This document shows positions 18,533 to 42,815 of a stretch of 64,000 nucleotides of DNA, piece after piece; position 1 is the stretch's first letter; every line of letters begins with the position of its first letter. This DNA is from Microbotryum violaceum (lineage: Eukaryota), in the NCBI GenBank assembly GCA_001244265.2, contig CDLV01000006.1, positions 682,001 through 746,000 of the forward strand. Direction: 5' to 3'. Under the pieces are notes generated by a model. That model was not told the origin of the DNA and made no database searches. It saw nothing but the letters and a program-made list of their open reading frames with translations. Made by a program: the position numbers and the translations under genes.

Positions 18533-19682
18533 CTAGCAGAATGACTCGCCAGCTCTTGTGTTGAGGATGAGAGCGACAATGAGACCGTACAGACCGATGA
18601 CTTCTGTTTAACGGTATTTCGAAAAGGTCAACGAGGGCCCGTGGACGAGGCAGTGAGGGCGAATGCGGAGGAGCGGCGCAACGGAGCGCAAGTAGAACGG
18701 CAATAGCGGGTGAGACAAGCGTTCACGATGAGATTAAAACGAGAAGGTTGGTTAGTGATACGGCTCAAGTACGTCGAGGTGTATCGGACTCTAAACGAAC
18801 CAGCGAAAATCTACGGTATGCGAATCAAGGCCGGATCAATCAGTGGCCGACTCGATACCAGCCCAGTATAAGAGCAATCACGCTCACCAGCATGAGCACC
18901 ATCGCGACAAATATCTTGGACTGGAACATATAGGTCCGAGCGCACTGTGTACAGGGTATGAGTCACCTTCAGCTTCGCCCTCCGATCGAGGTCCGTACCG
19001 CGAGCCGAGCTAGGCATACAGCATCACCAACGATCCCGACCGCATGGCCTGCTGCCAACCCCGTCAATCCACAACTCAGCCCGGCTGCGAGATGAATGAT
19101 TCCGGCATAGAGCGAGTACGGCACGTCCGGTGAGAGGCCACCGACGATAAGCACCGAGACGACCAGCCCATAGACGGCGATGATACCAGCCATGACGACC
19201 GGGATGAGCGACTTCACGTTCAGTCCCACATCGCAAAAAATGATGTCAGCGACCTGCATCGAATGCATCAAGTGGAGAGCCTTGTAGATGGCGATCAAGC
19301 CCGGGTGCGCACCTTCATGATGAGGTCCGGCCGTAATGTACCCATGCCCGAGATTCCGATCCCTGCCTTGGCCGTCCCGTATGCCGCTCCGATTGTCGAA
19401 AAGACCATCTGTAGAATCAGATCCAGTGAGGCGAGATGGGGATGCGGTGTGTGAGATGGTCAGCCGTCCGGTTCGTTCGCGCATGAGTCGATGACGATGG
19501 GATGATCGGGCAGCTGCCAGCTCCCCGCCGAGTAGACCAGCCTTGGGCATCTGGTACTTCCGAAGCCACCAAATCACTGTTGTTCCCCATCCATCGTTCA
19601 CATGTCTGGCCTGACTTACAGCACAGAACACGCCTGCGAACCCAAAGAAGGGCGCATAGACCGGGCAGCCGGATGTCGACAT
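18533..19682 (-). CDS. VMA11: V-type ATPase proteolipid subunit c'
   Basis: [41 protein letters not shown] and [21 protein letters not shown]. The catalytic Glu is formed across a 10-nt micro-exon (18801-18810). Confidence 0.9.
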
Positions 19683-20853
19683 GGTGGCTTGCTATCGAGA
19701 CAAGGTATACGGTTCCTGCCCAGATTCGTACAATGTGCTGAGTAGTGTCGGACGAAGAAGGAGAGTGCGGAACTCTTGCGGAAAGTGTGGCGAGGAGAGC
19801 TGCAGAGTAAATGGGCGGAGCGCGACGTCCGGTGTGGGCGGTGGCGCGCTCAACACTGCCCTGCTCTGCTCAAGCATCGAACTCGATGCGATCAAATTCT
19901 GTCATATAAAGTTTTCGAGCTTAAGCGGGCCCAGTATGATTGGTCTGGGATTCAGGTTTTTTTTTTACGTAGGCACGATCGAGCGTTTATACCTCGTCCT
20001 ATGTCTTGAATCGAATCCCGACAGGTGCATACATGCGGACCTCCCCAGAACGCCGAGGAAGCAAAAGATGAGTTTTCGAAGGCACTCACCCGAAAGAAGG
20101 TGGTACAACATTTTGGACCAGCACACTCATGTCATAATCTAACCCACCTGACTCCCAGCTGCTCGGCCTTGAAAATCAAGCGGGCACTAACTTTGGCCGA
20201 CAGCTCCTCAGCGGATGCATGAGATTCGCAGGCGTCGAGAACAGACATAAAGATGAATAGAAGAGGATACTTTTGTTTGGGTAAGGTAGAAATTATCTAT
20301 ATGAGAGGTTTACTAGATCACGCGCTCAGGTACGTCAACACCGCTCAAGCCTGCTCAGGAGACAAGATGAGTTTTATGATACTACCTTATCAATCGAAAA
20401 TGGGGAAGAGGTTGAGATGTTGGAGCCCAATGATGGGGCCAGTGAAAAAAGCAAAGAAGACGGAAGGGGTTTACGTCCTGAACACCCTAGGGTGCCAGCG
20501 AAACCAATGCCTGAGGCACGCCTTGATGCTGACCTCAAAGGGCTTTCGGAGCGATACCGAGTCTTTGCTCGAACAGTTTGTGGCCGTGGGTGATCCACAT
20601 AATGGAAGGTAAAGGGGAGAGATCGATTCAAAACCTCGGGGGTGAGGCACTGAGACGGTGGTACTCGAAATGCTCGTCGCGCCGGGGGTGGACAAATTGC
20701 GCGTCACGGGGACCGACGCACTGCGTGCGTGGACCGCATCTCCTGTCGGAAGCGGACCGACCTAGCGAGTTTCGGAATGAATCTGAGCCATAGAGGGGCA
20801 TGACAAACAATTCGTTTATGACAGTCCTCGGAAATAGGAAAGGTTCTAGACTA

Positions 20854-21101
20854 TGTCGTTTGATATGTGTCTGTGCCTGTGGTATCTGCGCGGATGCGCG
20901 TGCGTTTAGTCATTAGTCACTTTGGTATTGGAGTTTGATCTGTTTAAGTTAGGGAGCGCGCGGGGCTTTTCTTCCCGCGCGGCTGTTTACTCTTGGTAGC
21001 TTTCTCATCACTCGCTCTACATTGTGGTCCTGACTTCTCGGTCTCGGTGTCGTGCACCCTCACCTATCGGAAGGCTTTACTTCCGCGCTCTCATTGTTTC
21101 T

Positions 21102-21139
<38 letters not shown>

Positions 21140-21416
21140 AAGCAGTGAAACGTTGTCAGTAATATTGCAGAAACGATGAGAGCGCAGAAGTAAAGCCTTC
21201 CGATAGGTGAGGGTGCACGACAATGACACCGAGAAGTCAGGACCACAATGTAGAGCGAGTGATGAGAAAGCTACCAAGAGTAAACAGCCGCGCGGGAAGA
21301 AAAGCCCCGCGCGCTCCCTAACTTAAACAGATCAAACTCCAATACCAAAGTGACTAATGACTAAACGCACGCGCATCCGCGCAGATACCACAGGCACAGA
21401 CACATATCAAATGACA
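20854..21416. repeat. About 250-bp inverted repeat around a T35 tract and a 29-nt spacer
   Basis: Arm 20854-21102 is the reverse complement of 21168-21416 with about 6 mismatches. T run at 21104-21138. Confidence 0.95.
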
Positions 21417-22190
21417 GACTATAGTAAAGACTCCATTGAAACTAGGGGATTGCGAGGGATCTCGGATAGGTCTGCTGGGCAAAAGCAACGCATGGGTGGT
21501 GAATGAGGTAAGGTGGAGTGAGGTGCCGAGATGAGACTGGGAAGGATTAGGGAGTGAGAAAGGAAACTGTTGGTCGCAGGAAGGAAGGAAGCAACTTGAG
21601 AGAGTACGACTATCTCTAATCATTCTGGAAAGGTTGAAGGAATATTTGAACGTACTAGGGCCCGGGGGCGCTGTGCGCCCACCTCGCTGCGTGATTCAAG
21701 GTCGTGGCGAGCTCGGTTGGGAAAATAGGAACTGCCGGAACTGAAAGTTACGGAGACCAAAATGTTGGGCTGAACTGAGAGTCGAACTCAGATCCACTCC
21801 ATTCATTATGTTTCTTCTGACCTCTGAGCTACTCACCCAGCCGGAACAGGTGTAGGCGGCGGCGCACCCGGGTCAGGCCGGCGGCGGTTCTCCCTGGCCC
21901 CGTGCGCAGCTTACGCATCTTGCGTTCGCCGACGATGCTGTGGAGAGGCGGTGGTGTCACCGGTGGCATTGTCGAAGCTGCAAATACTGTCGCAGACGTG
22001 TTACACGGCGACCTGTGAGAAGACAAACACGGACGTGGTACAAGGCGACCTGTGGGAAGACAAACACGGACAAAACGCTTGTGCTACCTCTCGGACACGC
22101 TTCGGGACGAGACTGCGCAGGTGTTGCCGACAGTGCAGGAGGGAGGGAGCTTTAGGTGGTGCGGCTATGCCTTCATTCGCTATGGTGAAG
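21104..22190 (-). mobile_element. Probable 3' end of a non-LTR retroelement (minus-strand poly(A) and 3' UTR)
   Basis: The minus strand ends ...CACTGCTTC(A)35 after a pyrimidine-rich UTR-like stretch, with decayed Cys/His-containing ORF pieces upstream. A 28-bp direct repeat lies at 22007-22034/22044-22071. Confidence 0.45.
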
Positions 22191-22199
22191 TGAAACTGT

Positions 22200-22800
22200 T
22201 TTAGACCCATGTTCTCGACAGGATCAAGACCAAGACCCGCGCCGCTCAAGACGGGACACTTTTGCCAAGTGGGTTGAAGGTCTTCTATGCCAACGCTCAG
22301 ATCATCTTGACGGTTCTTCATGTGCTGTCCTTCGACATGCGGCCTCAATGGTTCATTAAAGCGGTGGAGAAGCATGGAGGGACTTTGTCTGGGGAGTGGC
22401 AGGGCAGAACACGGTCGCTCGCGAGTTCGTGTTCCAGGCTCGGGAGGACGGTGGCTTGGGCTTGATTTCGATCGGCGACTTCGTTTGTTCGGTGGCGCTT
22501 CGAGTTTGTGATGCTGTGGCGGGCTCGGACGAGGCGATCTGGGTGCCTCTAGCTCGCGAGAGCTGGAGGTCTCTCGTCGCTGCGACTGCAATTTTCAGCA
22601 GCAGGGCTCGGGTCGAGAAGCTGTATCGCGACTCGACGCGCTGGGGGCCAGTCATTGCAGCGGCCAGGGTCACAGTTCCAACCATCAAGTCCGAACTCCT
22701 TACGCTTCCCAAATTGCTCTCGCTTCCGCCTCGCCTCCCTTCACTCTATGCTAAAGATGTCAAGGACGAATATGACGATGCGGACGCAGTGGCGCAATTT
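22200..22800 (+). mobile_element. Old L1-like LINE ORF2 fragment, left part (interrupted by the Penelope-like element)
   Basis: KVFYANAQI, then after a frameshift DFVWGVAGQNTVAREFVFQAREDGGLGLISI, the L1 post-RT FxW...GGLG signature. Confidence 0.75.
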
Positions 22801-22801
22801 G

Positions 22802-23642
22802 GACGCAGGTGGGGAAATGCTAGAAGCCTGGCAGACGACCGTACAAGATCTCACCAAGACTTTCAAATCGAACCTCTTGAGTGCCATGATTGACGTTCGC
22901 ACGAAGCAAATCGCCAAGTGCAACGCCGTTCTCAACCATACGAAGTTCATTCAACATTGCATCGAGTCCTCCTGGACTCCGCTGTTGTCGTCTCGTTTTG
23001 GACCAGATCCTACGTTCGACCATAGGAAAGCGATCAAAACTCTAGCCAATGCTGCAGGAGAAGATCTCGCGCATAACATTGTCAACTACGACGTGTATGC
23101 TTCCCACCAGAGGCAGCTCAAGGAAGCTAAAGCGGCCAAGGCGAAAGCCGATTCCGTCGACGCTGTTATGGATATCGACGCGGTTCACACCCAAGATTCC
23201 ATCCTTGAAGAGGTTCGCAAGGCCATCTCGGCCTCCCTCAGACCCATTACCAAGGATATCGAGTCGCTTAAAGCGATCTCCTCGGTGAGTCCGAGCCTGC
23301 GAACCTCTATCGACTCTCAGTTTGAATATCCTTATTCATTCTCGACCGTCTCTTCTGTTCCAGAACAACACCAAGAAGAAGACATCATCGTCGAACGGAC
23401 CAGCTGCTCCTCATCCTCCCAAGAACCAGAACACCGGTCCCTCTCGTTCGTCGCAAGTGCACGGCCCCGCCAAGCCTATACCGAAGTCCAAGGGCCCTCC
23501 GCGGCCCTCAGCTCCTCGCACGTCGACAAAGGGTACTCAACCCATGTCGAATCAGTCTACCTCGAAGCCTCCTATCAAAAGAGGAATCGAGCACGTCAAA
23601 AAGGTCGCGAAAGGAGGAGCCAAAAAGCGCACGAAACGTTGA
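22802..23642 (+). CDS. PLE ORF1, 5'-truncated; coiled-coil region plus basic tail; intron 23285-23363
   Basis: Coiled-coil-like RQLKEAKAAKAKADSVDAVMDID. The phase-0 intron GTGAGT..TTCCAG joins it to a Lys/Pro-rich tail ending KKVAKGGAKKRTKR*. Confidence 0.65.
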
Positions 23643-23822
23643 TTGCCAACACGTCGCTCTCCTCTCTTCTGCCTCCTCAAGTTTCCACACTTGTTCATCA
23701 GACTGTACTTGCCACAAATCGAAGTTCTACTAGAAGTAGAGAAAGGAAATTGCGTTTGAAATTGAATTCTCCATACCCCATCATGATGAAGGATGTTGAG
23801 TCAATCGCGAGCTTCATTCTGA

Positions 23823-26153
23823 GCTCAACTTCGCAGCCTCGAGAGTCGTCCCGACTCTCGTCCCGACTCTCGAGGCCGCGACCTTTCGCAACCTCTACTT
23901 GCCATCAACCTGGATCTTCCTCTTATTTTCAACATAAAGAAGTACCTGACATGGCCGTCGCTGTTCTTATTCCTGGATAATGAACAACAACGCTTGTTCG
24001 TCGCTCTTCACTCAACTCCCCTATGGGTTGACACGTCGATGAAGAAACCCAAACTACTCAACCCGTTTGGACTCCCCTTCCCGACCGAAGTGCAACGTCT
24101 CCTTTCCAACAACATCAAGTTCATACCCCGACCCCACATTCACAAGATGAATCCGCTCGCGGGGTATGATCGACTTGAACGATCAGTTCGAACGAACTAC
24201 CTCTTCCGCAAGGCGGAAGAGAAGACCGGCCGTGATACCTTCATTCCGAAGCTTCACGTCAAGAGTCTTGATTGGTCTCCGCCTCGAGCGAGCCTAATTA
24301 TAGAGAAGGGTCTACGACTTGGTCGCAATACACTGCTACAAGCCGTTAGAAACGCCGACCCCACTTTGTGGCGTCCGAACCTCTCTATCAGTACGTTACG
24401 TTCTCTTGGACACCTGATGATCGAACACGACTTTATTGTCAAAGCATCAGACAAAAATCTAGGTTTAACCGTGCTCCCGAGAGAATGGTACATCAACGAG
24501 GCACTGAGGCAACTCAGTGACACGTCGACGTACACCGAACTGGATCCTGCCAACCATGACGCCGTCATACCGACACTCATGTCCGCTCGATATAAACTTG
24601 TCTCCAAAGTTATGTCTTCGCCGGAGTTGTTCAGGATCATCCCCAAATCAGCTGAGAAGTTCCTTCTGCAACTAAGTACGGACGACGTGAAACTCCCCGA
24701 GTTTCACCTCCTACCAAAGCTGCACAAGAAGGCCATCGCAGGAAGGCCCATCGTACCATCATACGCATGGGTGACGTCTCACGTCAGTATCTTCATTGAT
24801 ACCCTATTACAACCCATCCTTCAATCGTTCCCATGGATTATTAGAGACTCGAAGGACTTGCTTCGCAAGCTCCTCGAGCTTGAACTCCCGGACGACGAAG
24901 TCTGGATTGTGACTGCAGATATTCGCTCGATGTACACCAATATTCCTTCCACGGAAGGTGCCAACGTCGTTGCATATCTAGGCCACACCTTCTACGAGAC
25001 GAATCAGGCCCCGTGGGACAACTCTGTCCCGCCGGTCCCGCCGACCTCCACACCTCCACCATATGTCCTCAGACGTGATGAAGACTACCTACATTCCGAA
25101 ATCTGGCGAGATTTCTGTACGGATCACTTTATGGAGGCCTCTGGAGAATCGACGACGACAGAAGAAGACATACAGCCGTATAGCTACGCTCGCGACGGGT
25201 TCTCGGACCCGCGCGTGGCACCGCCGAACGACGATGTCTTCTCCGTCAGGGAATTCTTGCAAGAATCCCTATTATTCGTTCTCAACAACAGCTTCATCGG
25301 CTTTCAGAACAGAGTCTGGCATCAGACCTCCGGCACCGCGATGGGTACTGCAATGGCTCCCGCCTACGCAAACCTCTTCGTTGGCGCTTTTGAAAGGGAA
25401 TTAGACATTCCGAACGCCGATAACATTGTATTCTACGGTCGATATATCGATGACGTGATTGCCATAATCAAAGGTCCCCGTGACAATGTCGATAAGTTTG
25501 CCCAAAGCCTTAACGATATTCACCCGAACCTCGTCTTCGATTTTGAGATTAGCAACACCGGTCTTCCCTTCCTCGATGCTTTTGTATCGTTGAACCCCGA
25601 CCCGTCGAGCTCTGGCAGAAAGAAGAGAATCTCTACGAAACTCTATCAGAAGCCACTCAACACGTATCAATACATCCCATGGTCATCGTTTCATCCGGTC
25701 GACGTCAAACTCGCCTTTGTCAAAGGCGAGCTGATTCGATACATCCGTTTGAACTCGTCCAAAGAAGAATACCTCAAAACGATGTTACTCTTCTACGGAC
25801 GTTTAAGAGCTAGGGGCTACCCTCCTCGATGGCTTAAGAAAGCATTCTCACAAGTGCAGTACGACGATTTTCGTGCAAAGTCCCTTCTGGTCTCCCAGAA
25901 GAAGGACTCAGACACGAAAGTTCCGTTGTTCTTCGTTACCAAGTATAATCCAATCTGGGACCAGGTAGATGCATCAGTTGTACTCAATGCCATTGTCCAA
26001 GATTGGGACCCAGCTACTCGAGCTGAGGTCACGCACAATCCAAAACTGCGTATTATGCGAAGTCGCAGCCGAGCTCCGAACCTCGGCGACATCGTTAATG
26101 CACTTAACAAGAAGGTTCTCCATGGACCCAGCATATCCCCCGACTGCCGTTAG
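23823..26153 (+). CDS. Penelope-like reverse transcriptase, uninterrupted frame, no endonuclease
   Basis: KFIPRP, KASDKNLG, LPKLHK..GRPIV, TADIRSMYTNIP, GTAMGTAMAPAYANLF, YGRYIDDV, FLD, YQKP..QYIPWSSFHP, KGELIRY. Ends soon after RAPNLGDIV. The frame is open from 23823 and the first ATG is at 24039. Confidence 0.93.
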   Translation, partial: AQLRSLESRPDSRPDSRGRDLSQPLLAINLDLPLIFNIKKYLTWPSLFLFLDNEQQRLFVALHSTPLWVDTSMKKPKLLNPFGLPFPTEVQRLLSNNIKFIPRPHIHKMNPLAGYDRLERSVRTNYLFRKAEEKTGRDTFIPKLHVKSLDWSPPRASLIIEKGLRLGRNTLLQAVRNADPTLWRPNLSISTLRSLGHLMIEHDFIVKASDKNLGLTVLPREWYINEALRQLSDTSTYTELDPANHDAVIPTLMSARYKLVSKVMSSPELFRIIPKSAEKFLLQLSTDDVKLPEFHLLPKLHKKAIAGRPIVPSYAWVTSHVSIFIDTLLQPILQSFPWIIRDSKDLLRKLLELELPDDEVWIVTADIRSMYTNIPSTEGANVVAYLGHTFYETNQAPWDNSVPPVPPTSTPPPYVLRRDEDYLHSEIWRDFCTDHFMEASGESTTTEEDIQPYSYARDGFSDPRVAPPNDDVFSVREFLQESLLFVLNNSFIGFQNRVWHQTSGTAMGTAMAPAYANLFVGAFERELDIPNADNIVFYGRYIDDVIAIIKGPRDNVDKFAQSLNDIHPNLVFDFEISNTGLPFLDAFVSLNPDPSSSGRKKRISTKLYQKPLNTYQYIPWSSFHPVDVKLAFVKGELIRYIRLNSSKEEYLKTMLLFYGRLRARGYPPRWLKKAFSQVQYDDFRAKSLLVSQKKDSDTKVPLFFVTKYNPIWDQVDASVVLNAIVQDWDPATRAEVTHNPKLRIMRSRSRAPNLGDIVNALNKKVLHGPSISPDCR

Positions 26154-26928
26154 CATTATACCCTAATCTTAACGGCGAGAGTAATCTCATGCAGTCATTC
26201 CTATCCTTATGAAGGTGGAATTTGTGAACGACTTCAACGATCTTTGATCGTTGCAAATCTGATCACTCTACGGGAGAAACTCGACGGTTTTCTTACTCTT
26301 AAGAGGCTTAATCACCCTAAACCGTTCAGGTTTACCGTCATCTCTATATTCTGGACTTCAACATATATCGCGTATGATACCGTGTACGAAGTGAGCAACC
26401 ATGGCAAACACGTACGATGAGGCTTAATCCGACGACCCGTGGTCTCGGTCACTTGCGGAAGCCTTCGCTCCCAAGTGTCAAGCACATTGCACATTAGTAA
26501 CCGTGGCGTAACACTACGTCTTGTTCACAACTCTTCCACCACCACTTCCCCCATGATACCGCTGTCCCCTTGAATGGGTGTACGCTCTCATGGCCCGGTT
26601 ATGGTTGGTGCGAAGAATTTTTGTTCATCTCACGATTTCAAACAGATCTCTTTGTGAATCTTAACGCATGTATACATGAAGTATAAGGCCTTTAATCCTC
26701 TACCCAACTTGTGCGGACAAGTGGGCATGCCATCTACAATATCTCTTACGCTTCGGCCTTTCGGCTCGAAGATCGTCGAGACTCACGGAATTTTTTCCGT
26801 ATGTAGACACACTAGCTATCTTCTCGGTTCGGTGCCGACTCGATAGACCATCTTTTCATCATTCATCTACTATTTGTCCCGTACAAATACAATGATTTTT
26901 GACTGAGGAATGATCGACCAAAGTCCTT

Positions 26929-28600
26929 GCGCAGATCGTGGGCCTGTACTGGAGGGACGAAGGGAAGGGATGGGCTATCGTTGGTCGTCGAAGCGGGTTC
27001 TGGTAGCACTCTAAGGAATCCGCCCTGCCGCACGCGCACGTGTGGTCGCGCGTGGGTCAGAAGCTCAGGGCGAAAGCCTTGCTGTCCAAGACCGCGGTGC
27101 GACCCGCTCGGATACCTTCCACAGAGGCTCCCCATCCTCGGTGCTTCAACTTCTTTAGGCTCACCCGGCCTTCACTATTCGCAAGCTTTGTCGGTGTGGT
27201 TCGGTTCCCAGGGAAGGTGGACCGGGTCAAGTGCTTCTCTGTGGGGACTTCTCAGAGCGATAGGGAGATAGCTTCATGACCGGTTCGAGTCTGCTGTGGA
27301 GCCAGGTACCCACTGGCGGCTCATGTACAACGTGACGCCGACACGCAAGAGGCAGCACACTCAGGGCCATGCCTCTTTGCCGTCGTGGTCGTTCTGTGGC
27401 AAAGCTACAGCGGTCATCTAGATGGTGTCGCGCTAATTTATTAGGTACTCGGCCAGCTTCTGGGGTCGGGCGCTACACTCTCTGCTCGACAAGCTCGGCA
27501 TCGAGGAAGCCGACGTCGTTCCGTCGACGTTCATCCAGGAGCAGCTAACCATGGGGCTCCCCCTTCTACGGGGTTGTGGGAGAATCACCTTGAAATGGAT
27601 GTGGGTTCGGTTGGCCTGTGTGATCGGCTTCCAGCCGCTGCACCTGGTCCGCTGGCGCGTTCATCAGTGATTCCAGGAGGTCGGTGTCGTAGCCCCTCCC
27701 TCAATTCCCCGTGCGCTCAGAGCGTTTGACTCTTTTTCGGGCGGGCTTTGTCCCTGGGGCTCGAGCTTGGGAGCTGTGAAGACCGATTTGAGTCTTTCCT
27801 TCACTTTCCTCCCCTCTCTTTCCTTCCTTTCTCCTCTAGTGGGCCTTCGGAAGTTGACATGCCTCGAAACTTGTTGCGCAGTGGAAGGCTGCGCTGCGCA
27901 TCTTACCCCCCCACCCCCCCTCTTTTTGTTTGTGGCCGAGGGTGGTTTCCTTGTTTGTATGGATCCGCAAACAGGGTGAATGTACAATAACGCTTGTGTG
28001 ACCGGCTAAGTGTCCCCTGACTCTCTCTCTCTTCCTTTCTGGTGGCTCAGATGTTGACAAGAATTTTGGTCACCACCCCTTTCTCCCTTTCAGGCTTCTG
28101 GACCCGAGCCGCTTGCGTTGGATCGGCAAAGAAGGATCGCTCGCTTGGGTCAAGATTCTCGCGAGATAGCGAGGCTCGTTGGTGTTTTTGTTTTTGTTTC
28201 GAGTGTTTGCTCGGCTGGACAGCTCAATAGTCAGTGCTCGAGACTCAGCCAACGGAGGACTTCAGGCGCTGTCGGGGTGACGAGTAGCTGGGGCGTGGCT
28301 GCGGCTTGTTAGTCCCTGGGGACCTCTATCTCTGGCTTAGAGCCCCCCTCGCCCCTCGGGTGTGTTCTCCCCCTCCCCTGTGTCTTAGTTCTACTTCTCC
28401 GTGTTTCTGGTTGTGGCCTTTTGTATATGTCTCTTTAGGTGCTCCCTGGTTATCGCGTATCTTCGCTCCCGATCCTGGGATGTGACGGAAGCGGCAGCAG
28501 ACTCACCGCCCAGCGGGTTTTGTTGATCTGCGCGTCACTCTTCGCGCGCAGGGTTTCGATTTCTTCCCATCTGCTGGTCGTCATTGCTCAGAATAATAAA
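26929..28600 (+). mobile_element. Old L1-like LINE, right part (decayed zf-RVT region and 3' UTR)
   Basis: AQIVGLYWRD..., then HWRLMYNVTPTRKRQHTQGH..SFCG...RYSASFWG and LHLVRWR, with stops. Ends near AATAATAAA; the 3' boundary is approximate. Confidence 0.7.
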
Positions 28601-28884
28601 CTGACGAGCGTGTAGCCCAACCGACAGTTAATTACGTATGATAGTAGCGGTAATGATAAATGTACGTACCTGACGAGCGTGTAATCCAACCGTGGAGAGA
28701 AGACAACGGTTGGTGCGCATCGCCAGGCTTCCCTAATATAAACAGACGCGCGCTTCGAATCGAATAGCCAATAGCCGCCTTCCTGCTAATCCTCCTTCAC
28801 GACACACCAACTACAACCTTTTTTAGCTCTTTTTGTAGCGGTCCCAACCAACCCGAAGGATCGCAAGGTATGAGCCCCTCGTGA

Positions 28885-29645
28885 TAGAGGTCCGTGCTCA
28901 GGAACAGCTCGTAACACGTTCGGACTCGAAAGTAGTACGAGCAGACGCGTAAAACTACGAGTGTCATGTTACAAAAAACATTGATCATTGCTGCCGCTAC
29001 AAATCACGTTGAAGCGGGTCAGAGTGACCTTGATGCAAAAGTGGCCTCGGTGACCGAGTGGGTCCCCTTTCGAAAGTCCGCAGCGCCGGGGAGCTGCGAT
29101 GCCGAGCGGCGGCGGCGACTGACGTACTGACGGGCTGGCGTCATTGGCACCGATCGAGCGATCTCAAGTGCTCGCTTGACTCGACTCTCCCGGCCTCACC
29201 GGGGTGGTGCAAGATTATCAGTAGAATTAATGTGCCTAAGGAATTTTAGTCAAACTGGTTCGCACTTCAGTATCGAGGGTGGTGACGTGGACAGTCGCGC
29301 AGCGAGCAAACTAGTCAGGCACGCGTGCTAGAGGTCCGTGCTCAGGAACAGCTCTTAACACGTTCGGACTCGAGAGTAGTACGAGCAGACGCGTAAAAAT
29401 ACAAGTGTCATGTTACAAATATCAAGAACACTGCTTTTGATCATTGCTGCTGCTACAAACCACGTTGAAGCGGGTCAAAGTGACCTTGATGCAAAAGTGG
29501 CCTCGGTGGCCGAGTGGGTCTCCTTTTGAAAGTCGGTAGCGCCGGGGGAGCTGCAATGCCGAGCGGCGGCGGCGAAACGGGCTGGCGTCATTGGCACCGA
29601 TCGAACGATTGAGATCGCTTGCTTGACCCGACTCTCCCGGCCTCA
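28885..29645. repeat. About 315-bp diverged tandem duplication upstream of the second Rds1-like gene
   Basis: 28885-29198 and 29329-29645 both run TAGAGGTCCGTGCTCAGGAACAGCTC...GACTCTCCCGGCCTCA. Confidence 0.92.
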
Positions 29646-29880
29646 TTCCTTCTTTTCACTTTCTCTCTCTCTCCTTCGTTTCTCTCACTTTGGCTTTCCT
29701 CGACCCCGCCGAGTTTAATACACCTCCTCCGAGTGAGTCCGCTTCATCTACATCTCTGCCCATTGGTTCCATGCCCCCACCACTCATCTTCCACCCGCCT
29801 TGAACTCATTCGATAGTATCAGCTCCTGTCGGCCCCACGTCGCACCGACCCAATTCTGCTCACCCGCCCATCGAACCACG

Positions 29881-31909
29881 ATGAAGCTCGAAGTCCCCTT
29901 TCAGCTTCTTTCACTCGCTACCCTCGTTTTTGCCAGTCCTCTGCCCCATAACGATGGTTCTGTTGGCGTCCATTCCGAACAGACACGAGACCCGAACTTG
30001 CGCGATCCCATCTTCGTCAGCGTGCCCGAGCCGGTCAAGAACAATCCCCCACTTCAAGGCAATCCGGCGGTCAACGGCACCAACACGACCTTTTCTGCAC
30101 CCTTTACCCCTGCTGGCGGGCTTTTGTCCCAGAACCCAAAGTGTGAGTCACCCTGGTCGCCCGAGAGTGGTCGCACGGCTGCGGCCCAGCCGCGGCCATC
30201 ACTCCCTCACGGACTAATCATGCCTCGGACTCGTCTTCAATAGACCGTGTCAAGTCCAATTTTGATTATCAAAGCTTGAGCGTCGGTCTCCACCAAGAAT
30301 TAATTGAACTTGTAAGTTCTGGATCTGTTTGGTGCGACACGGCTCACCGGTGGCCGACTAGCGCTGACGCCCCTATCCACTGCTGGTCGCTCGCTCACAA
30401 CTCACCGCTCCCTCCCAGGATTTGTTCCAAGATGCCCTTTCAAGGTCTGTCAATAGTTATGTCAATGGTCTGGTTGGGCCTATAGCTTATCGGGGTCACC
30501 TGCCCGCTGTTTTCGACAGGTTCTCCGTCGACGAATGGGAGGCTGCTGGCATCACCGCCGAGGATCGCTTCTTGATCGAGTTTATGGCGGACCAAGAGGT
30601 CGGTCATGCGACTGCGCTCACCAACATGGTCGGTCCTGAGAGGGTTAGTGATTTCACTACATCCTTCGTGCATCTCCAATGTTCTTTTGCTTAACCAATT
30701 GCGATCTTGTCCACACACAGGCAGTGAAGCAATGCGTCTATCGGTACCCATACAAGACCGTCCGAGAGTTCATTCTGTTCTCGCACTTGCTCACGCGCTG
30801 GGGTGAGAGTGGTACTCTCGGTTTCTTGCCCCATCTCGACAATAGAAACACGGCGCAGATTGTCTTGCAAGCAATCACGACCGAGTCGAGGCAAGAGATG
30901 ATCTTTCGCCAGTTTCAGGGGCTTTTCCCCATGCCCATGTGGTTCGGTAAGTTGCTCCTCCTCTCGATGTGGCGATCACAGACAACCTCTGTCACTGCTT
31001 GCTGATAGTGAATTGACGCTTATTCTCCCGCTGTAGTCACCGGCGTGCCCCAAGCGTTCCAGTGGACCTTGCTGCAACGATACATCAAGTCCTGCCCTGC
31101 GAACAACCCCACGATCCAGTTCCAGATCTTTCCCGACTTGCTCATCACGAATGCACCCAATCTGCTCGGTCACCCTCCCGCCATCACTCGCAACACAAGT
31201 GGCGTTACATACCCTAGTCGCGTTATTAAGTTCGAGTGGGAGGCTCCCGGTAAGGTTACGGGGTACGATGACAAGTACCGCACCGCCACGACCGCTGGAC
31301 CGCCCAAGGTATACCCTTTCGCCATTTACCTGCAGAGCCTGTCTCGGATTGTTTCTGATCCTTACTCTTCTCATTGTATGATAGTTTGCTGCTTTCGTTT
31401 CGCAACTCAACGTCACCTACACCGACCTTGTCGACATTGATCTTGCCAAGCGCACCGCAGGTATGTGATCAGTCTTCCTCCCTCAGAAGCACAGCATTTT
31501 GACGCCTCTTCGACTCTCCGACTCTGCCACACATCATGATGCACAGCCACGAAGCAACCTTGCGCGCTTGTGTTCCCTGGTGCCAATGGCCGCCCGGGAA
31601 ACTCCCAGGTCAATGAAACCGTCTTCGTCGTTCTCACCGACTCGAAACCCTTCCTCACCCCGTAAGTGGACGTTTGCTATTGGACTCGCCGTATCCTAGG
31701 CTAGAGAGTACATTTACCAATAACTGTATTATTTGTACGATCTAAAATCTAACATCTACAGCGGCAACATCACGCTAATCAACCCACACGTCGTGGCGGG
31801 TCCTGCACTGTGAGTTTGACCTTGGTTTCGGTAGCCCCTACATATATTGGCGCCTCGATAACTCACCCTGCTTGTGCCCACCTTGCCACACAGCTACCAA
31901 TCGGGCTGA
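29881..31909 (+). CDS. Rds1-like secreted ferritin-like protein, multi-exon
   Basis: Signal peptide MKLEVPFQLLSLATLVFA; FDYQSLSVGLHQELIELDLF, MADQEVGHAT, RWGESGTLGFLPHLD, TESRQEMIFRQFQGLFPMP; last exon YQSG*. Confidence 0.88.
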
Positions 31910-36790: not shown

Positions 36791-38074
36791 CACAATCAGT
36801 TGTAGTTGCTTTCTTTTTGTTGTCTAGTAATGATAAACGCCCCGAGTTGTGCTCTGAACCTTCCTGACTTGTTGCATTCTGCGAGAAGTAAAAAGTAATC
36901 GCTTTGCGAGCCTTGAGGCCTAAGGAGCTTGCCAAGCTCGAGATGCACCCTATCCAAGTTGGCTTGATCCTTTCTCCAGGGGCCCGGGACCAAGCGAAGC
37001 ATAGATATAAGAACTGAAAGCAACAAAATCATAATGCCGTAGTAGTGGATGGATTCCCTCATGTTGTCGTTCGGCTCTCCTGACCACTCGCGCGAGTCGT
37101 AGCGGAATAGTGGTCCGAGTTGCAGCAAGACGAAGGACAACATATGACAATTGGGAGCTTTGCGACCCAAGCTTCTGGATGTCAGTCGGCTGCAACTGAT
37201 GAAGGAGCAAGTCCACTGATCGTCTCAGCATACCTTTGCGACAAAGGCAAGACACTGTATAAAGACAGTTGTGGCGCGGTTGGTGCAAAGGACGGCAAAG
37301 GGTCTGCTGAGAGATATGCGATTTAGCTCGTTGCCCAACAAGGACTCGGAGCAAAATGCCCCCACAAAGAATTCGCAGGGATCCAAGTGCAAAGTACACC
37401 GTGCAACAAGCTTGGGTGTCTCGAAGCACTTACCTCGAGCTACTCTAAGCGAGCCACGTCGAGGGTTTCATTACGAGCTGCTAAAAGCTGTGAACGTCCG
37501 GCAAGATGGAACTCTCGATCAGCGACCTCGTCAGCTGGGAGGTAGTCTTGGGAGTGAGGAACGCACCTGTCCCTACAGGTGGTGAACGCAGCCACAGAAG
37601 CTGGTAAGGAAACGTCGACAACGCAGTGAAGGCCCAAAAGGGAACGTGCGTTGCGAGTACCGCCCGTGAGCCCGCGTGTGTAGGAAGCACAGCTATAGCA
37701 TCCACGGGGGAGAGAGGGTCCGTGCGCGCGAGCCCGAATCGGCGCAGGACCCCCGAAAGCCCAGCCGGAGGCGCATTTTTTTTTTTTTTTTGACGTTTTG
37801 AGGACCCAAAATCCTGAAAATCGTCGAAGCGCATTGCAAAAAATTGACATTTTGAGACGAAACACACGTTTCGCCCACGAGGCGCATGTCCAGATTTTGA
37901 CATTTTCCCGTGAGTCGGCCCAATTTTGGCCTACCGCATGACTTTGGGCCGGTTTGCCTTCGCTTCGAGATGCTCGCGCTTGAACAAGTCACTTAGTACT
38001 AGCCATCTTCGGTGATCACTTGAGTTAAGTGGCTGTGAGGGATTAGGCCGATTAGATATTGAAGGGGCGCACTA

Positions 38075-38973
38075 TTTCGAAGCCTGGGATTTGGTGACAA
38101 CGCTGAACCCCCCCGAACTTTCCAAGAGCCCGAATCTGGAGCGGTGGGCAACACACGTCCTCTACTTCCCAGCAGGCCACGGAATCCGACTCTCGGTGAA
38201 CCCGACGCTTTTCCGAGGACCCGATGGCGAGGTGATGACTCCGTCTTCGTTTGTGAACGCGTCCAAACGCCACCAAGCCTTCCTCTACCCTCCTATCCTC
38301 CCTCTCGGTCATCAGAGGGTTTTCTGTCTCCCCGAGCAACGCTGGAATGCCTGGTGGAAGGCGCTACGCAAGATTCGCAGGGTTCATTCGGACGCCGAAG
38401 ACACGGCCCACCTCCTCTCCCTAGGTTCACTTCATCCAGGTAGCCAAATCGCTTCTCCAAATAGCCGTTCTCTCCACAATCGATCTACCGCATGTGTCAT
38501 GTGCCTGTCGGAGGCTCCGGAGACCCTGGCACACCTTGCGGTCGGTTGCCCGTTTGCCCGCCGCCTCTGGTCTGCGCTCACTCCTATCCCACACCCCGAC
38601 TTTGTTCAGTTCGTGTGCCCGGTCGTTTCTCGCTCGGAACGCCGACCCGTCGAGCTGCGTCTACTCTTCTTCCACGCGATCTGGAAGCTCTCTCGTCGCC
38701 GTCGATTTTCGTCGGATCCTCTGGAGCCGATCGCCGAAACGGCATTTGAGGAGCTCCGCGCGTCCATCCAGGAGTCCAAGGGACGACTGGTTTCGCTGTA
38801 ACCGCCTAAGGGGTTTTAGTGGGTATGGTTGATTTTGTTCCAAGGTCAACGAGTCCCACACTACTGGCCTCGCCAGTGTGCTTAACTGCATTCCCTCCGT
38901 CTTTTCCGAGGATTTTTAGGCATTAATATAGATATGCTGTTAATGAAATCTATTAGATAAAAAAAAAAAAAAA
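38075..38973 (+). mobile_element. Young 5'-truncated L1/Tx1-like LINE (zf-RVT end, 3' UTR, A15)
   Basis: CVMC..ETLAHLAVGC zinc finger and a poly(A) at 38959-38973. Near-identical to the reverse complement of 40431-41323. Confidence 0.92.
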
Positions 38974-40430
38974 GGTTCCGTTCCGCTTCACTTTGGTCCG
39001 AGATTGGAGCATAGCACAACATCATCATCCCATGCAGGCCTTGAACGATGCCTTCGATTGATTATTGCCGCTCACCAACATGAACATGACGATCGCCGAG
39101 CTCCTGTTTGAACAGATTTGTCACAGTACCTTTGGATAGTCTTTCTTTCCTTTAGACAACTTAGAGACGACTTAGACGAGATCAACCTGACACGAACCGA
39201 ACACGTCAACAGTCGATTGTAGCAGTTCTCGCGACCTTTGAGGGATCAAACCCTTACAGTCATGAACGGTCCGGTGCGGCACTCTGGTTCAAAATGTACG
39301 AATGTCATTTTCTTCAGCTGGGCTATCGGAGAGCCCATTGGTCCGGCTCTCCAGAGCATTACCGGCCGGGGCAGACCTGACTTTTCCGTGCATTCCGGAA
39401 GGTTATCTTATCTTTCCAGTCTTTTGCCCAACCGGTGCTGTGGTCGCGAATCGCATGACAGCAGCGTTCAACGCCCCGTCTCGACACCGGGCCAGGCTTC
39501 TCGCAGCGAGGTACGAAAATTTTGGCGGATCCTGCCGTTCTGTTTGACCACATCGAGTCACAGCCAAGATCGCATAGTCCCTGAAAATGAGGAGTTGCGA
39601 CTTACCCCAAAGAGCCGACTGCTCGGGACAAGATCGAGGAAACTTATGAGGGTCACGGTGGCGCAGTGAGAGACATACCAAACCCCGAAACGGTCCACTA
39701 CGAGTGACAGTAATCGAACGGACCCCTATGCCATCAGTCTTTGACACTCAAATGACACTCAAAGCCGCAGAAATAAGCTTTCAGGACTAACATCCCTCGA
39801 ACTCTTCGTGATCGACCCTCAGCCCCTTCAAGCCTTCCAGCACTTCCTACGTCCTCCGAATGCGTGAATGCGTCGTGAATAGGGCGGCGGGTGCACTTTT
39901 CAGGCGTTCAACCTACGAGTATGCTTTCCCAATTCTCGATAAAAATGCTCCACACCATCGCCAGACCTCTGCACCGCATCCTCCTGAACCCCACGATCAG
40001 TGACAAGATATTTCCCTCGAACGTGAAGCCCGATGAATGGTGGCGGGGTGTTGAACTCGTTTCCGAGCGGGCCTCTAAGGTCGATGGAAAAAGCTGGTAG
40101 GTGATGACATGTATATCATTGTGGAAATGTAAGTGGAAGTGGAGGTGCTTGCCGACGCGAGTCCAGGAGGGGTCGTGCGAACCGAGGTTCTCGAACGAAG
40201 TTGGGTCGATATGAGTCTGCCAGCGATGAAACGGACAGGGTAAAGTGCAGACCGAGACAAGACGGATCAGTACCAGCCAGCTGAGCTCATCCATAGATAT
40301 GGACTTGGAACTGCCCCGCTCTGGACGAACCTGAACACCTATCGTTGAGGCAATAGACCTGCTGTTCAGGCGGTGGAAATTCCTCTTCCACGCCGTCCCA
40401 TTTCTCCCGCGCGATCTCCCCTAACGCTTC

Positions 40431-42815
40431 TTTTTTTTATCTAATAGATTTCATTAACAGCATATCTATATTAATGCCTAAAAATCCTCGGAAAAGACGG
40501 AGGGAATGCAGTTAAGCACACTGGCGAGGCCAGTAGTGTGGGACTCGTTGACCTTGGAACAAAATCAACCATACCCACTAAAACCCCCTTAGGCGGTTAC
40601 AGCGAAACCAGTCGTCCCTTGGACTCCTGGATGGACGCGCGGAGCTCCTCAAATGCCGTTTCGGCGATCGGCTCCAGAGGATCCGACGAAAATCGACGGC
40701 GACGAGAGAGCTTCCAGATCGCGTGGAAGAAGAGTAGACGCAGCTCGACGGGTCGGCGTTCCGAGCGAGAAACGACCGGGCACACGAACTGAACAAAGTC
40801 GGGGTGTGGGATAGGAGTGAGCGCAGACCAGAGGCGGCGGGCAAACGGGCAACCGACCGCAAGGTGTGCCAGGGTCTCCGGAGCCTCCGACAGGCACATG
40901 ACACATGCGGTAGATCGATTGTGGAGAGAACGGCTATTCGGAGAAGCGATTTGGCTACCTGGATGAAGTGAACCTAGGGAGAGGAGGTGGGCCGTGTCTT
41001 CGGCGTCCGAATGAACCCTGCGAATCTTGCGTAGCGCCTTCCACCAGGCATTCCAGCGTTGCTCGGGGAGACAGAAAACCCTCTGATGACCGAGAGGGAG
41101 GATAGGAGGGTAGAGGAAGGCTTGGTGGCGTTTGGACGCGTTCCCAAACGAAGACGGAGTCATCACCTCGCCATCGGGTCCTCGGAAAAGCGTCGGGTTC
41201 ACCGAGAGTCGGATTCCGTGGCCTGCTGGGAAGTAGAGGACGTGTGTTGCCCACCGCTCCAGATTCGGGCTCTTGGAAAGTTCGGGGGGGTTCAGCGTTG
41301 TCACCAAATCCCAGGCTTCGAAAAAGCGGATCCATCGTGGAGGGAGCAGGGCCTTCGTCTTCCTCACTGCGCGTTCCCACTGTGGAGGAGGGTGGCAAAA
41401 GTAGGCCCACCAGATCCAGACCCACGAGCGACGATGTGGGTTGGGGCCTGATTTGGGCAAGGTAAAGGGGGTGCGTTCGTTCGCCGCCTGAAGGCGAGTG
41501 CGGATGTCGAAGAGGTGCCGAATGAAGCAGCCGTCCGGGTCCCGAAGATGAAAGACCCACTTGGCGTGATCGACCGCGAGGCGCCGAGGTAAGTCAATCA
41601 AGCCAAAGCCGCCGTGGTCGAGAGGGGTGCAGAGGCGCAGCCGAGAGACCTTCGGGGGTTTCTGAGATCCGTCCGAGGCTCGACCGTGGATAGCGATCAT
41701 GACCGCGTCCTCGATCTCCTTGACGACGCTCTTGGAAGCTGGGATGAAACGATTATGGTAGAGAATCTTCGTGTAGCAGTAGATATTGATTATCGAACAT
41801 TTCGCTGCGTACGGAAGGTCGTACATTGGGATGGATCGTATCCGGGCGACGGTCGCGGACTTGACCTCCTCCCAGCCCGCATCCTCGGCGATGTCCACCC
41901 CAACCTGCACTCCCAGGTAACGAAACTGCGAGTCGCTGAGACGCCAGGACCCGAGGTGTGAAGGGATCGGACGGTCCCTGAATGACCCGAGGGGGTAGAG
42001 GAAAGATTTGGCGTTGCTGAGCTTGCTGGCACTTGCCCGCTCGTACAGCTCGATCGCCCGATTGAGGTGGTCGAGGTCCGAGGTGTCGTGGAGAGCACAG
42101 CAGGCATCGTCGGCAAAGAGAAGTTCTCGTATGGTTGGGAGTCCCGGGCTCGCGATGCCTTGACTTGTGACCGCAACTGTACGGCGAAGCCCTCAATTGC
42201 GAGAACGAAGAGCGACGGAGCCAGCGGGTCGCCTTGTCGAACTCCCGAGAGGATATCGAACGCGGCCGAGAGCCATCCGTTGAGGTAGATTGAGGCGGAT
42301 TGGTTTGTATAGGTCGCTCGGTACCATTGGCAGGCTTTCGGGCCAAGGCCAACGGCGCTGAGGACTGCATCGATGTAGGTGTGGGAAAGACGGTCGTAAG
42401 CCTTCTCGAAGTCCATCACTGCGAGCAGACCGGACACCGGCTCTGAACCCGGGAGCCCAGGATCCATGAGACACTGCACCTCGGCGATGTTCGTGCCAAT
42501 CCAGCGGTTCGGAATGAAACCGCGCTGGGTCGAGCCGATCAGGGTCTCGAGCAGAGGGGCAAGGCGCTGGTTGTGGGCTTGGGAGATGATGCGTTCATCA
42601 GCGTTGATGAGTGATATGGGGCGTTTGTTCACCAGCCGATCCCTCTCGCCGCGCTTGTGGATGAGGTGGATGTGGGCAGTGTGGCGGGCCGACGTTCGAG
42701 AACTGGCGTCGTCGGTGGGGATCGAGTTGATGACGTCGCGGAGGATGGGGCCTGTGGCTGTCCACGTTGCGCGGTAAAACTCGACCGGGAGACCGTCGGG
42801 TCCAGGCGAGGAGTT
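40431..42815 (-). mobile_element. Young 5'-truncated L1/Tx1-like LINE (RT to poly(A)), one frameshift
   Basis: SSPGPDGLPVEFY, RPISLIN, DFEKAYDRL, GVRQGDPLAPSLF, a 1-nt frameshift near 42158 before LFADD, GGFGL, zf-RVT, and T8 at 40431-40438. Confidence 0.94.

What the first reader, a model, noticed from the sequence alone, without database searches (positions are those of the whole stretch)
22200..28600. Endonuclease-less, telomerase-related retroelement inserted inside a LINE at an interstitial gene-rich site
Seen: an uninterrupted PLE-type RT with no GIY-YIG domain. The flanks rejoin as one L1 ORF2 (...DADAVAQF at 22800 | AQIVGLYW from 26929), with only a TTG microhomology, no clear TSD and no telomeric repeat array. 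Known: EN-deficient fungal PLEs (Coprina) are described mainly at telomeres, priming on chromosome ends. Inference: this copy integrated internally without its own nuclease, at a DNA break or a nick supplied in trans (for example by LINE endonuclease). The intact RT inside a decayed host implies recent activity. This is the best candidate here for an under-described system.
Basis: partly seen in the sequence, partly recalled or inferred. Interest (0 to 1): 0.8.

Follow-up and report, generated by a model that had tools for sequence, protein, structure and literature searches.

The report
Nuclease-less retroelement captured inside old LINE
A telomerase-related jumping gene that has no DNA-cutting enzyme of its own recently landed, clipped at both ends, in the middle of an old mobile element far from any chromosome end in a smut fungus, most likely by patching a chance DNA break; this is an expected but seldom documented event.

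Summary
Mostly confirmed. A Coprina-like Penelope element without endonuclease (22802-26926) interrupts one decayed L1-type LINE about 0.7 Mb inside a contig of an anther-smut fungus. The flanks rejoin, and one of four sequencing runs laid here carries the empty site, so the insertion is polymorphic and recent; only TTG is duplicated or shared. No GIY-YIG domain was found, the RT folds like TERT and groups away from EN+ elements.

Corrections: the copy is not intact. It lacks about 110 N-terminal codons, and the hammerhead plus TAACCC end that its sister family carries. A small duplication also uncouples ORF1 from RT. Help from the LINE endonuclease is not supported: the site lacks the A-tract this LINE uses.

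Best reading: break repair primed inside the RNA (about 0.55); DNA-templated capture is the main rival. Priming at DNA breaks and Microbotryum Coprina elements are both already in print.

Extra finding: in two families here, a 3n+1 intron gives ORF1 alone when spliced and an ORF1-RT fusion when retained.

The parts
21896..22801 (+). Left part of an old, 5'-truncated L1-type LINE copy (RT end and C-terminal region of ORF2)
   Evidence: 83-84% identical to the best of many genomic copies; the family carries APE-like, RVT_1 and zf-RVT domains
22799..22801 (+). TTG, left copy of the 3-nt duplication or microhomology; could also be the PLE's own Leu codon
   Evidence: aligns with L-D in P0002
22802..26926 (+). 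Endonuclease-less Penelope-like (Coprina-like) insert, 4125 nt; 5'-truncated (shown), 3'-truncated (inferred)
   Evidence: empty allele skips 4128 nt including one TTG
22802..23284 (+). ORF1 exon 1; lacks about 110 N-terminal codons and the 5' UTR
   Evidence: 34% identical to P0002 residues 111-445 when read unspliced, E 6e-35
23285..23363 (+). 79-nt GT-AG intron (3n+1), open in the unspliced frame
   Evidence: removed in a contig of run X16; 85-nt counterpart in the sister family
23364..23642 (+). Dual-coding stretch: basic K/P-rich ORF1 tail ending in TGA when spliced; linker towards RT when unspliced
   Evidence: unspliced frame open in 1 of 20000 shuffles here and 0 of 20000 in the sister family
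23846..23870 (+). 12-bp tandem duplication plus one base; shifts the frame between ORF1 and RT in this allele
   Evidence: comparison with P0002 and P0006; run X7 has a 55-nt deletion across it and its unspliced frame is open for 1099 codons
23823..26153 (+). Open RT frame: DKN motif, motif A Asp366, GxAMG, YIDD, thumb and C-terminal extension; disordered insertion at residues 397-469 (IFD position); no endonuclease
   Evidence: the 12 best structural matches are all TERT
26154..26926 (+). 3' UTR remnant without hammerhead or TAACCC; single copy in the assembly
   Evidence: the sister family's 3' UTR is 1339 nt against 776 here
26927..26929 (+). TTG, right copy
26927..28878 (+). Right part of the same LINE copy, interrupted by an unrelated ~220-nt insert at 28589-28811

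Best explanation
A Coprina-like EN-less PLE was copied into an accidental double-strand break in an old LINE. Steps: (1, inferred) an unspliced RNA of a full-length donor copy, absent from this assembly, was bound by its ORF1-RT fusion protein. (2, inferred) A break with a short stagger opened at CAAT-TTG-CGCAG. (3, inferred) The right-hand 3' end primed reverse transcription inside the 3' UTR, upstream of the hammerhead and TAACCC end that normally pair with telomeres. (4, result shown) About 4.1 kb was copied, stopping inside ORF1 and keeping the intron. (5, result shown) The end was joined to the left flank with no target loss and a 3-nt duplication or microhomology. The LINE is a passive landing site. 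The copy cannot move by the usual route because it lacks both ends. In the intact family, splicing of one intron chooses between ORF1 alone and the ORF1-RT fusion.
For: Empty allele with a clean 3-nt overlap. No endonuclease in the element. The one GIY-YIG match in the genome looks like the host SLX1 gene (name recalled from motifs). TERT-like fold and EN-less clade, split from all 8 EN+ rows by a branch of 99 SH-aLRT. The sister family ends in hammerhead plus TAACCC joined straight to non-telomeric DNA at all 7 near-identical ends read. Its internal copy at C3:1.03 Mb has such ends facing out on both sides, as expected if both ends of a break primed. A second, 230-nt piece of this family sits internally on C10 between two AAT triplets that are not PLE sequence. 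Both internal 3' junctions of this family fall at a run of C, like the TAACCC end; with n = 2 this is a hint only. Priming at double-strand breaks is the published expectation (PMC3846280, passages).
Against: Nothing in the sequence proves an RNA intermediate: PLEs keep introns, and there is no poly(A) or ribozyme end. The true 3' end of this family was not seen, so the 3' truncation is inferred from the sister family and from three distant relatives. No donor copy was found, and contigs of X1 and X7 cross both junctions unbranched. The 40 contig ends read show no telomere array, so a terminal donor cannot be excluded. There is one empty allele from one run, with a 67-letter left side; precise excision is unlikely but not excluded.
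Confidence: 0.55

Rival explanations
1. DNA-templated capture: the broken end invaded a terminal or subterminal DNA copy of the element and copied 4.1 kb by repair synthesis, with no reverse transcription.
For: Both ends are clipped at arbitrary points, the intron is present, the overlaps are 3 nt, and the C10 fragment is an internal 230-nt piece. All of this fits templated insertion (general knowledge).
Against: It needs a DNA donor in the same nucleus; none is seen now, though the RNA model needs one too. The sister family shows ribozyme-defined ends at internal sites, which points to RNA-based insertion in this genome.
Confidence: 0.25
2. The LINE's AP endonuclease nicked the site in trans and the PLE RT used the nick.
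For: A young LINE subfamily with an APE-like domain is abundant: most fetched copies are 98-99% alike. The insert lies in a LINE, and some LINE target sites also end in TTG.
Against: The site has no A-tract, whereas 4 of 10 listed LINE 5' junctions follow one, some with long A-rich duplications. The host copy is an old 83% relic. The other internal PLE pieces (C3, C10) and four near-end copies do not adjoin this LINE. A study in rotifers found no sign that EN+ PLEs mobilise EN-less ones (PMC3846280, passages; a different nuclease).
Confidence: 0.1
3. The site is a former chromosome end or fusion scar where the element attached terminally.
For: 13 of 14 loci with the sister family's 3' end lie within 55 kb of a contig end, against 6.4% of the assembly. 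Several of these are duplicates of one event, and contig ends are not shown to be telomeres.
Against: Both flanks belong to one continuous LINE copy, the empty allele exists, and there are no telomeric repeats.
Confidence: 0.03
4. The element has, or recently had, its own endonuclease (a spliced exon, or a lost N- or C-terminal domain).
For: The first ~110 codons are missing from this copy.
Against: No GIY-YIG in 32 of 32 relatives scanned, including full-length ones of 900-1200 aa, nor in P0002-P0005 by the custom profile. The relatives stop at the same place after the thumb.
Confidence: 0.02

Closest known systems
Coprina clade of EN-deficient Penelope-like elements (fungi), including the Microbotryum violaceum Coprina named in Craig et al. 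2021 (PMC8557442)
   Same: TERT-related RT with DKN motif, no GIY-YIG, ORF1 upstream, an insertion at the IFD position (as noted for M. violaceum), and hammerhead plus reverse-complement telomeric repeat at the 3' end of the sister family.
   Different: This copy is interstitial, clipped at both ends and has no ribozyme or telomeric repeat. ORF1 and RT are coupled by intron retention, where relatives L085, L086 and L088 have two overlapping frames. Identity with the published M. violaceum sequence could not be checked (not found in the cut supplement).
Coprina-1_Alen of Ascochyta lentis (PMC13159263; passages and Discussion part 1 read)
   Same: EN-less, ORF1 with coil plus RT ORF, transcribed, present in some isolates and absent in others.
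   Different: All 13 copies there are at chromosome ends, bounded by telomeric repeats except one degraded copy.
EN-less PLE-X families of Chara and Selaginella (PMC8557442, passages)
   Same: No endonuclease, yet inserted away from telomeres.
   Different: Chlamys-derived; genome-wide or targeted to 28S rDNA. The element here is a rare single capture.
Endonuclease-independent LINE-1 insertions and templated insertions at DNA breaks (recalled; PMC5110952 seen in a search listing only)
   Same: Truncated at both ends, little or no target duplication, microhomology junctions.
   Different: Different RT class; here the enzyme never had a nuclease.

Membership tests
Penelope-like elements | RT closest to telomerase RT, with the N-terminal DKN motif | tested here: met
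   12 best Foldseek matches are TERT, E 1e-8 to 3e-6, TM 0.32-0.37; DKN at 210-212 nearly invariant
Penelope-like elements | Spliceosomal intron retained in genomic copies | tested here: met
   79-nt intron present in DNA and removed in a contig of X16
Coprina (EN- PLE) | No GIY-YIG endonuclease at either end | tested here: met
Coprina (EN- PLE) | RT groups with named Coprina references | tested here: inconclusive
   The tree (50 rows, quick method, midpoint root) puts it among EN-less rows with a Rhizopus protein and two hammerhead-bearing relatives, apart from 8 EN+ rows. No named Coprina, Athena or TERT sequence was in the tree.
Coprina (EN- PLE) | 3' hammerhead followed by reverse-complement telomeric repeat | tested here: inconclusive
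   Absent from this copy (0 matches). Present in the sister family in this genome, so absence most likely reflects truncation.
Coprina (EN- PLE) | Location at or near telomeres | tested here: not met
   This copy lies 705 kb from the nearest contig end. Sister 3' ends cluster near contig ends, but telomere arrays are not assembled.
EN+ PLE (Penelope/Poseidon, Neptune, Naiad/Chlamys) | GIY-YIG fused to RT | tested here: not met
L1-clade LINE (host element) | ORF1, then AP endonuclease, RT and C-terminal zinc motif, with a poly(A) end | tested here: met
   (APE match E 7e-4, below Pfam's cut-off); no clade tree was built

The most novel reading that the evidence does not exclude
These fungal Coprina-like elements use retention of one frame-shifting intron as their gag/pol-like switch: spliced RNA makes ORF1, and unspliced RNA makes the ORF1-RT fusion and is the template. 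This would explain why PLE introns survive retrotransposition. Their RT also acts as a recurrent break-patching enzyme that primes inside the RNA at C-runs, without the ribozyme-telomere end, leaving 3-nt duplications.
Probability: 0.3. Interest if true: 0.68.

Novelty: new member of a known kind. Interest (0 to 1): 0.42.

Why it matters
It gives a filled and an empty allele for an event that the literature predicts, an endonuclease-less, telomerase-related RT element entering a chromosome interior. The junctions can be read to the base, and the same genome holds two more internal cases. The intron switch offers a concrete, testable answer, for this group, to a question that Craig et al. 2021 call open: what intron retention in PLEs is for. 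It does not reveal a new transposition system or a LINE-PLE partnership.

Tried and rejected
Rfam found no hammerhead in window 19000-31000 but also missed the sister and metagenome hammerheads, so it is uninformative; a descriptor with controls was used instead. Folding of four short stretches gave no significant z-scores, including the sister hammerhead. No RNA holder was listed among the runs; this is no evidence on expression. X16 has no cover over 26169-26870, which is not used as evidence. Depth was similar inside and outside the insert in X7 (245 against 232-239), but depth is no copy number. The first tree dropped 21 of the 52 listed proteins, including all 8 EN+ rows, and the two metagenome rows, through a faulty core filter; it was replaced (50 of 50 kept). 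The splice-variant scan kept only 2 variants that lengthened the frame; neither matched. The diverged 70-74% copies of the sister 3' end do not match this element's 3' UTR, so they do not supply its missing end. A shared CGCAGAT just right of the 3' junction here and at C3 is not seen at the other junctions and is treated as chance. A sequence search of solved structures gave only weak RT matches, with group II intron RTs ahead of TERT. A sensitive profile search of this genome for distant PLEs was not available, so further families may be missed. Gladyshev and Arkhipova 2007 and Arkhipova et al. 2017 are not held and were not read; they may already describe the intron arrangement. The Craig 2021 supplement was cut when stored.

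Full report
WHAT IS THERE. The window is G000:C4:682001-746000 of a 33.2 Mb, 20-contig assembly. The nearest named relatives of the RT are Microbotryum silenes-dioicae proteins (P0006, 87% over 281 aa), so the host is most likely an anther-smut fungus. A search of the genome with 20800-28700 matched 21896-22808 and 26927-27894 to many LINE copies in which the two parts are adjacent. All 29 non-self loci fetched from that search read ...GAAGTTTGCGCAGAT... or a one-base variant across the join. The LINE family has APE-like, RT and zf-RVT domains and a poly(A) end. Most fetched copies are 98-99% alike, while the window's copy is an 83% relic. So one old LINE copy was split by an insert.

THE EMPTY ALLELE. 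Of 24 runs listed, 13 hold at least 0.91 of the sampled words (one may be the source of the assembly). Four were laid. X19, with the same organism label as several holders, has a contig joining 22798 to 26927 with 3 ambiguous letters, and no cover over 23010-25817. Its flanks differ from the window by about 0.5%. X1 and X7 hold the insert, with contigs crossing both junctions; X1 shows 0 differences over 3418 nt. The insertion is therefore polymorphic and recent, removes no target DNA, and leaves TTG on both sides.

THE INSERT. The RT frame (23823-26153) has the DKN, motif A, GxAMG and YIDD motifs. Its model (pLDDT 84.9) matches TERT in the 12 best Foldseek rows, with a disordered insertion at residues 397-469. 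No GIY-YIG was found in it by Pfam or in 32 of 32 relatives. A profile from 4 EN+ relatives found the held-out control at E 5e-30 and nothing better than E 1.3 in the insert or downstream. The one GIY-YIG match in the genome is a host gene with SLX1-like motifs (name recalled). In a 50-row tree it sits with P0002 and a sister family from contig C3, separated from all 8 EN+ rows by a branch of 99 SH-aLRT. The tree used the quick method, a midpoint root and no named references. The host has its own TERT gene.

IT IS NOT INTACT. The first codons align with residue 113 onward of P0002 (1213 aa, 67% identical in RT), so about 110 codons and the 5' UTR are missing. A hammerhead descriptor finds 5 of 5 controls and nothing here on either strand, even with one mismatch, and there is no TAACCC in the insert. 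The sister family's 3' UTR is 1339 nt and ends in hammerhead plus TAACCC; this one stops after 776 nt. The 3' truncation is thus inferred, not seen. A 12-bp tandem duplication plus one base at 23846-23870 shifts the frame between ORF1 and RT. X7 carries a 55-nt deletion there, and its unspliced frame is open for 1099 codons.

THE INTRON SWITCH. 23285-23363 is a 79-nt GT-AG intron, removed in a contig of X16 that has no other differences from the window. X16's kind is not on record, but it also joins two exons of the neighbouring host gene (loose end at 19620 matches 19379-19408), so it is probably RNA. Spliced, ORF1 gains a basic tail and stops at 23642. Unspliced, the frame runs through the intron and the tail region towards RT. 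The sister family has an 85-nt intron at the same place with the same two outcomes. The unspliced frame stays open in 1 and 0 of 20000 shuffles that keep the tail's codons. Three metagenome relatives instead have two overlapping frames. Craig et al. (PMC8557442, passages) draw conserved introns and an optional ORF1 frameshift for PLEs and call the significance of intron retention unknown. Paper searches listed nothing on this switch, but the two key papers on EN-less PLEs are not held.

OTHER COPIES. This family has only one other match, a 230-nt piece at C10:620 kb, 5 differences from the window, between two AAT triplets that are not PLE sequence. It is also present in X19 and X16. The sister family has one decayed internal copy at C3:1.03 Mb, with hammerhead-TAACCC ends facing outward on both sides. 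It also has 13 further loci, all within 55 kb of contig ends, against 6.4% of the assembly; several are duplicates of one event. The 40 contig ends show no telomere array, and four TTAGGG in a row are absent from the assembly. Those ends are therefore not proven telomeres, and terminal copies may be unassembled. Unbranched contigs across both junctions in X1 and X7 suggest no second near-identical copy in those samples, though contigs show presence, not absence.

MECHANISM. Shown: no nuclease, internal site, 3-nt overlap, no target loss, 5' truncation, recent origin. Inferred: a break supplied the primer and copying began inside the RNA (0.55). The rival of DNA-templated capture cannot be separated by sequence (0.25). 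LINE endonuclease in trans is weak (0.10): the site lacks the A-tract seen before 4 of 10 listed LINE 5' junctions, and other PLE copies do not adjoin this LINE.

WHAT IS KNOWN. Arkhipova et al. 2013 (PMC3846280, passages) state that EN-deficient PLEs prime at deprotected telomeres or at double-strand breaks. Craig et al. 2021 (passages and searches of a cut supplement) mention Coprina with IFD-like regions in Microbotryum violaceum, and EN-less PLE-X families away from telomeres. PMC13159263 (passages, Discussion part 1) describes terminal Coprina in Ascochyta. PMC4209133 (passages) describes fungal PLE hammerheads. PMC6431247 (passages) describes the hammerhead-telomere end. [quoted passage not shown] In the Microbotryum TE preprint 10.1101/2022.08.03.502670 (word search and passages), 'Penelope' and 'PLE' do not occur in the main text; its supplements were not seen.

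VERDICT. A real, well-resolved instance of an expected but seldom documented event, in a known kind of element. It works like a Coprina element; membership is likely but the tree with named references is missing. Interest 0.42; the intron switch is the part most worth following.

Noticed in passing
window 20846-21424: Fold-back element: 257-nt arms, 96% complementary, around a 35-nt T run; related pieces on C3 near 1.886-1.891 Mb and 2.981 Mb, some abutting a LINE.
   Followed up: no
window 38072-41326: Two LINE 3' fragments of about 900 nt in inverted orientation, 99% complementary, around a 1.46-kb spacer; both read as a cysteine-motif C-terminal frame and end in A runs.
   Followed up: partly
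window 28873-29645: Tandem duplication of about 450 nt, 87-97% alike, just right of the LINE's 3' end.
   Followed up: no
window 28589-28811: Short insert in the LINE 3' UTR with internal repeats; high depth and fold-back joints in the laid runs.
   Followed up: no
L045-L047, L051, L052, L055, L058, L067, L070, L081, L082, L084, L096: One repeat end (…GATACGTATATA followed by CT or CC) occurs near many contig ends, always facing inward, and caps several sister-PLE fragments; perhaps the end of a large Helitron-like element (guess) that causes the assembly breaks.
   Followed up: partly
L039:9500-9690 and 3716-3832 (C3:1.026-1.032 Mb): Internal sister PLE with hammerhead-TAACCC ends facing outward on both sides and a palindromic piece of another repeat in between; a candidate break healed from both ends. 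Empty allele not checked.
   Followed up: partly
L041:4976-5205 (C10:619975-620204): The 230-nt PLE piece lies inside a 1693-nt contig of the probably-RNA run X16, so it may be part of a host transcript.
   Followed up: no
P0006 (Microbotryum silenes-dioicae gene model): Its last 14 residues match the sister family's 3' UTR while the rest matches this family's RT, suggesting the two families lie side by side or share a 3' region in that species.
   Followed up: no
L085, L086, L088: Distant metagenome relatives assemble as permuted units of about 4.1 kb with a hammerhead; L085 and L088 also carry TAACCC repeats. This is the classic head-to-tail arrangement.
   Followed up: partly
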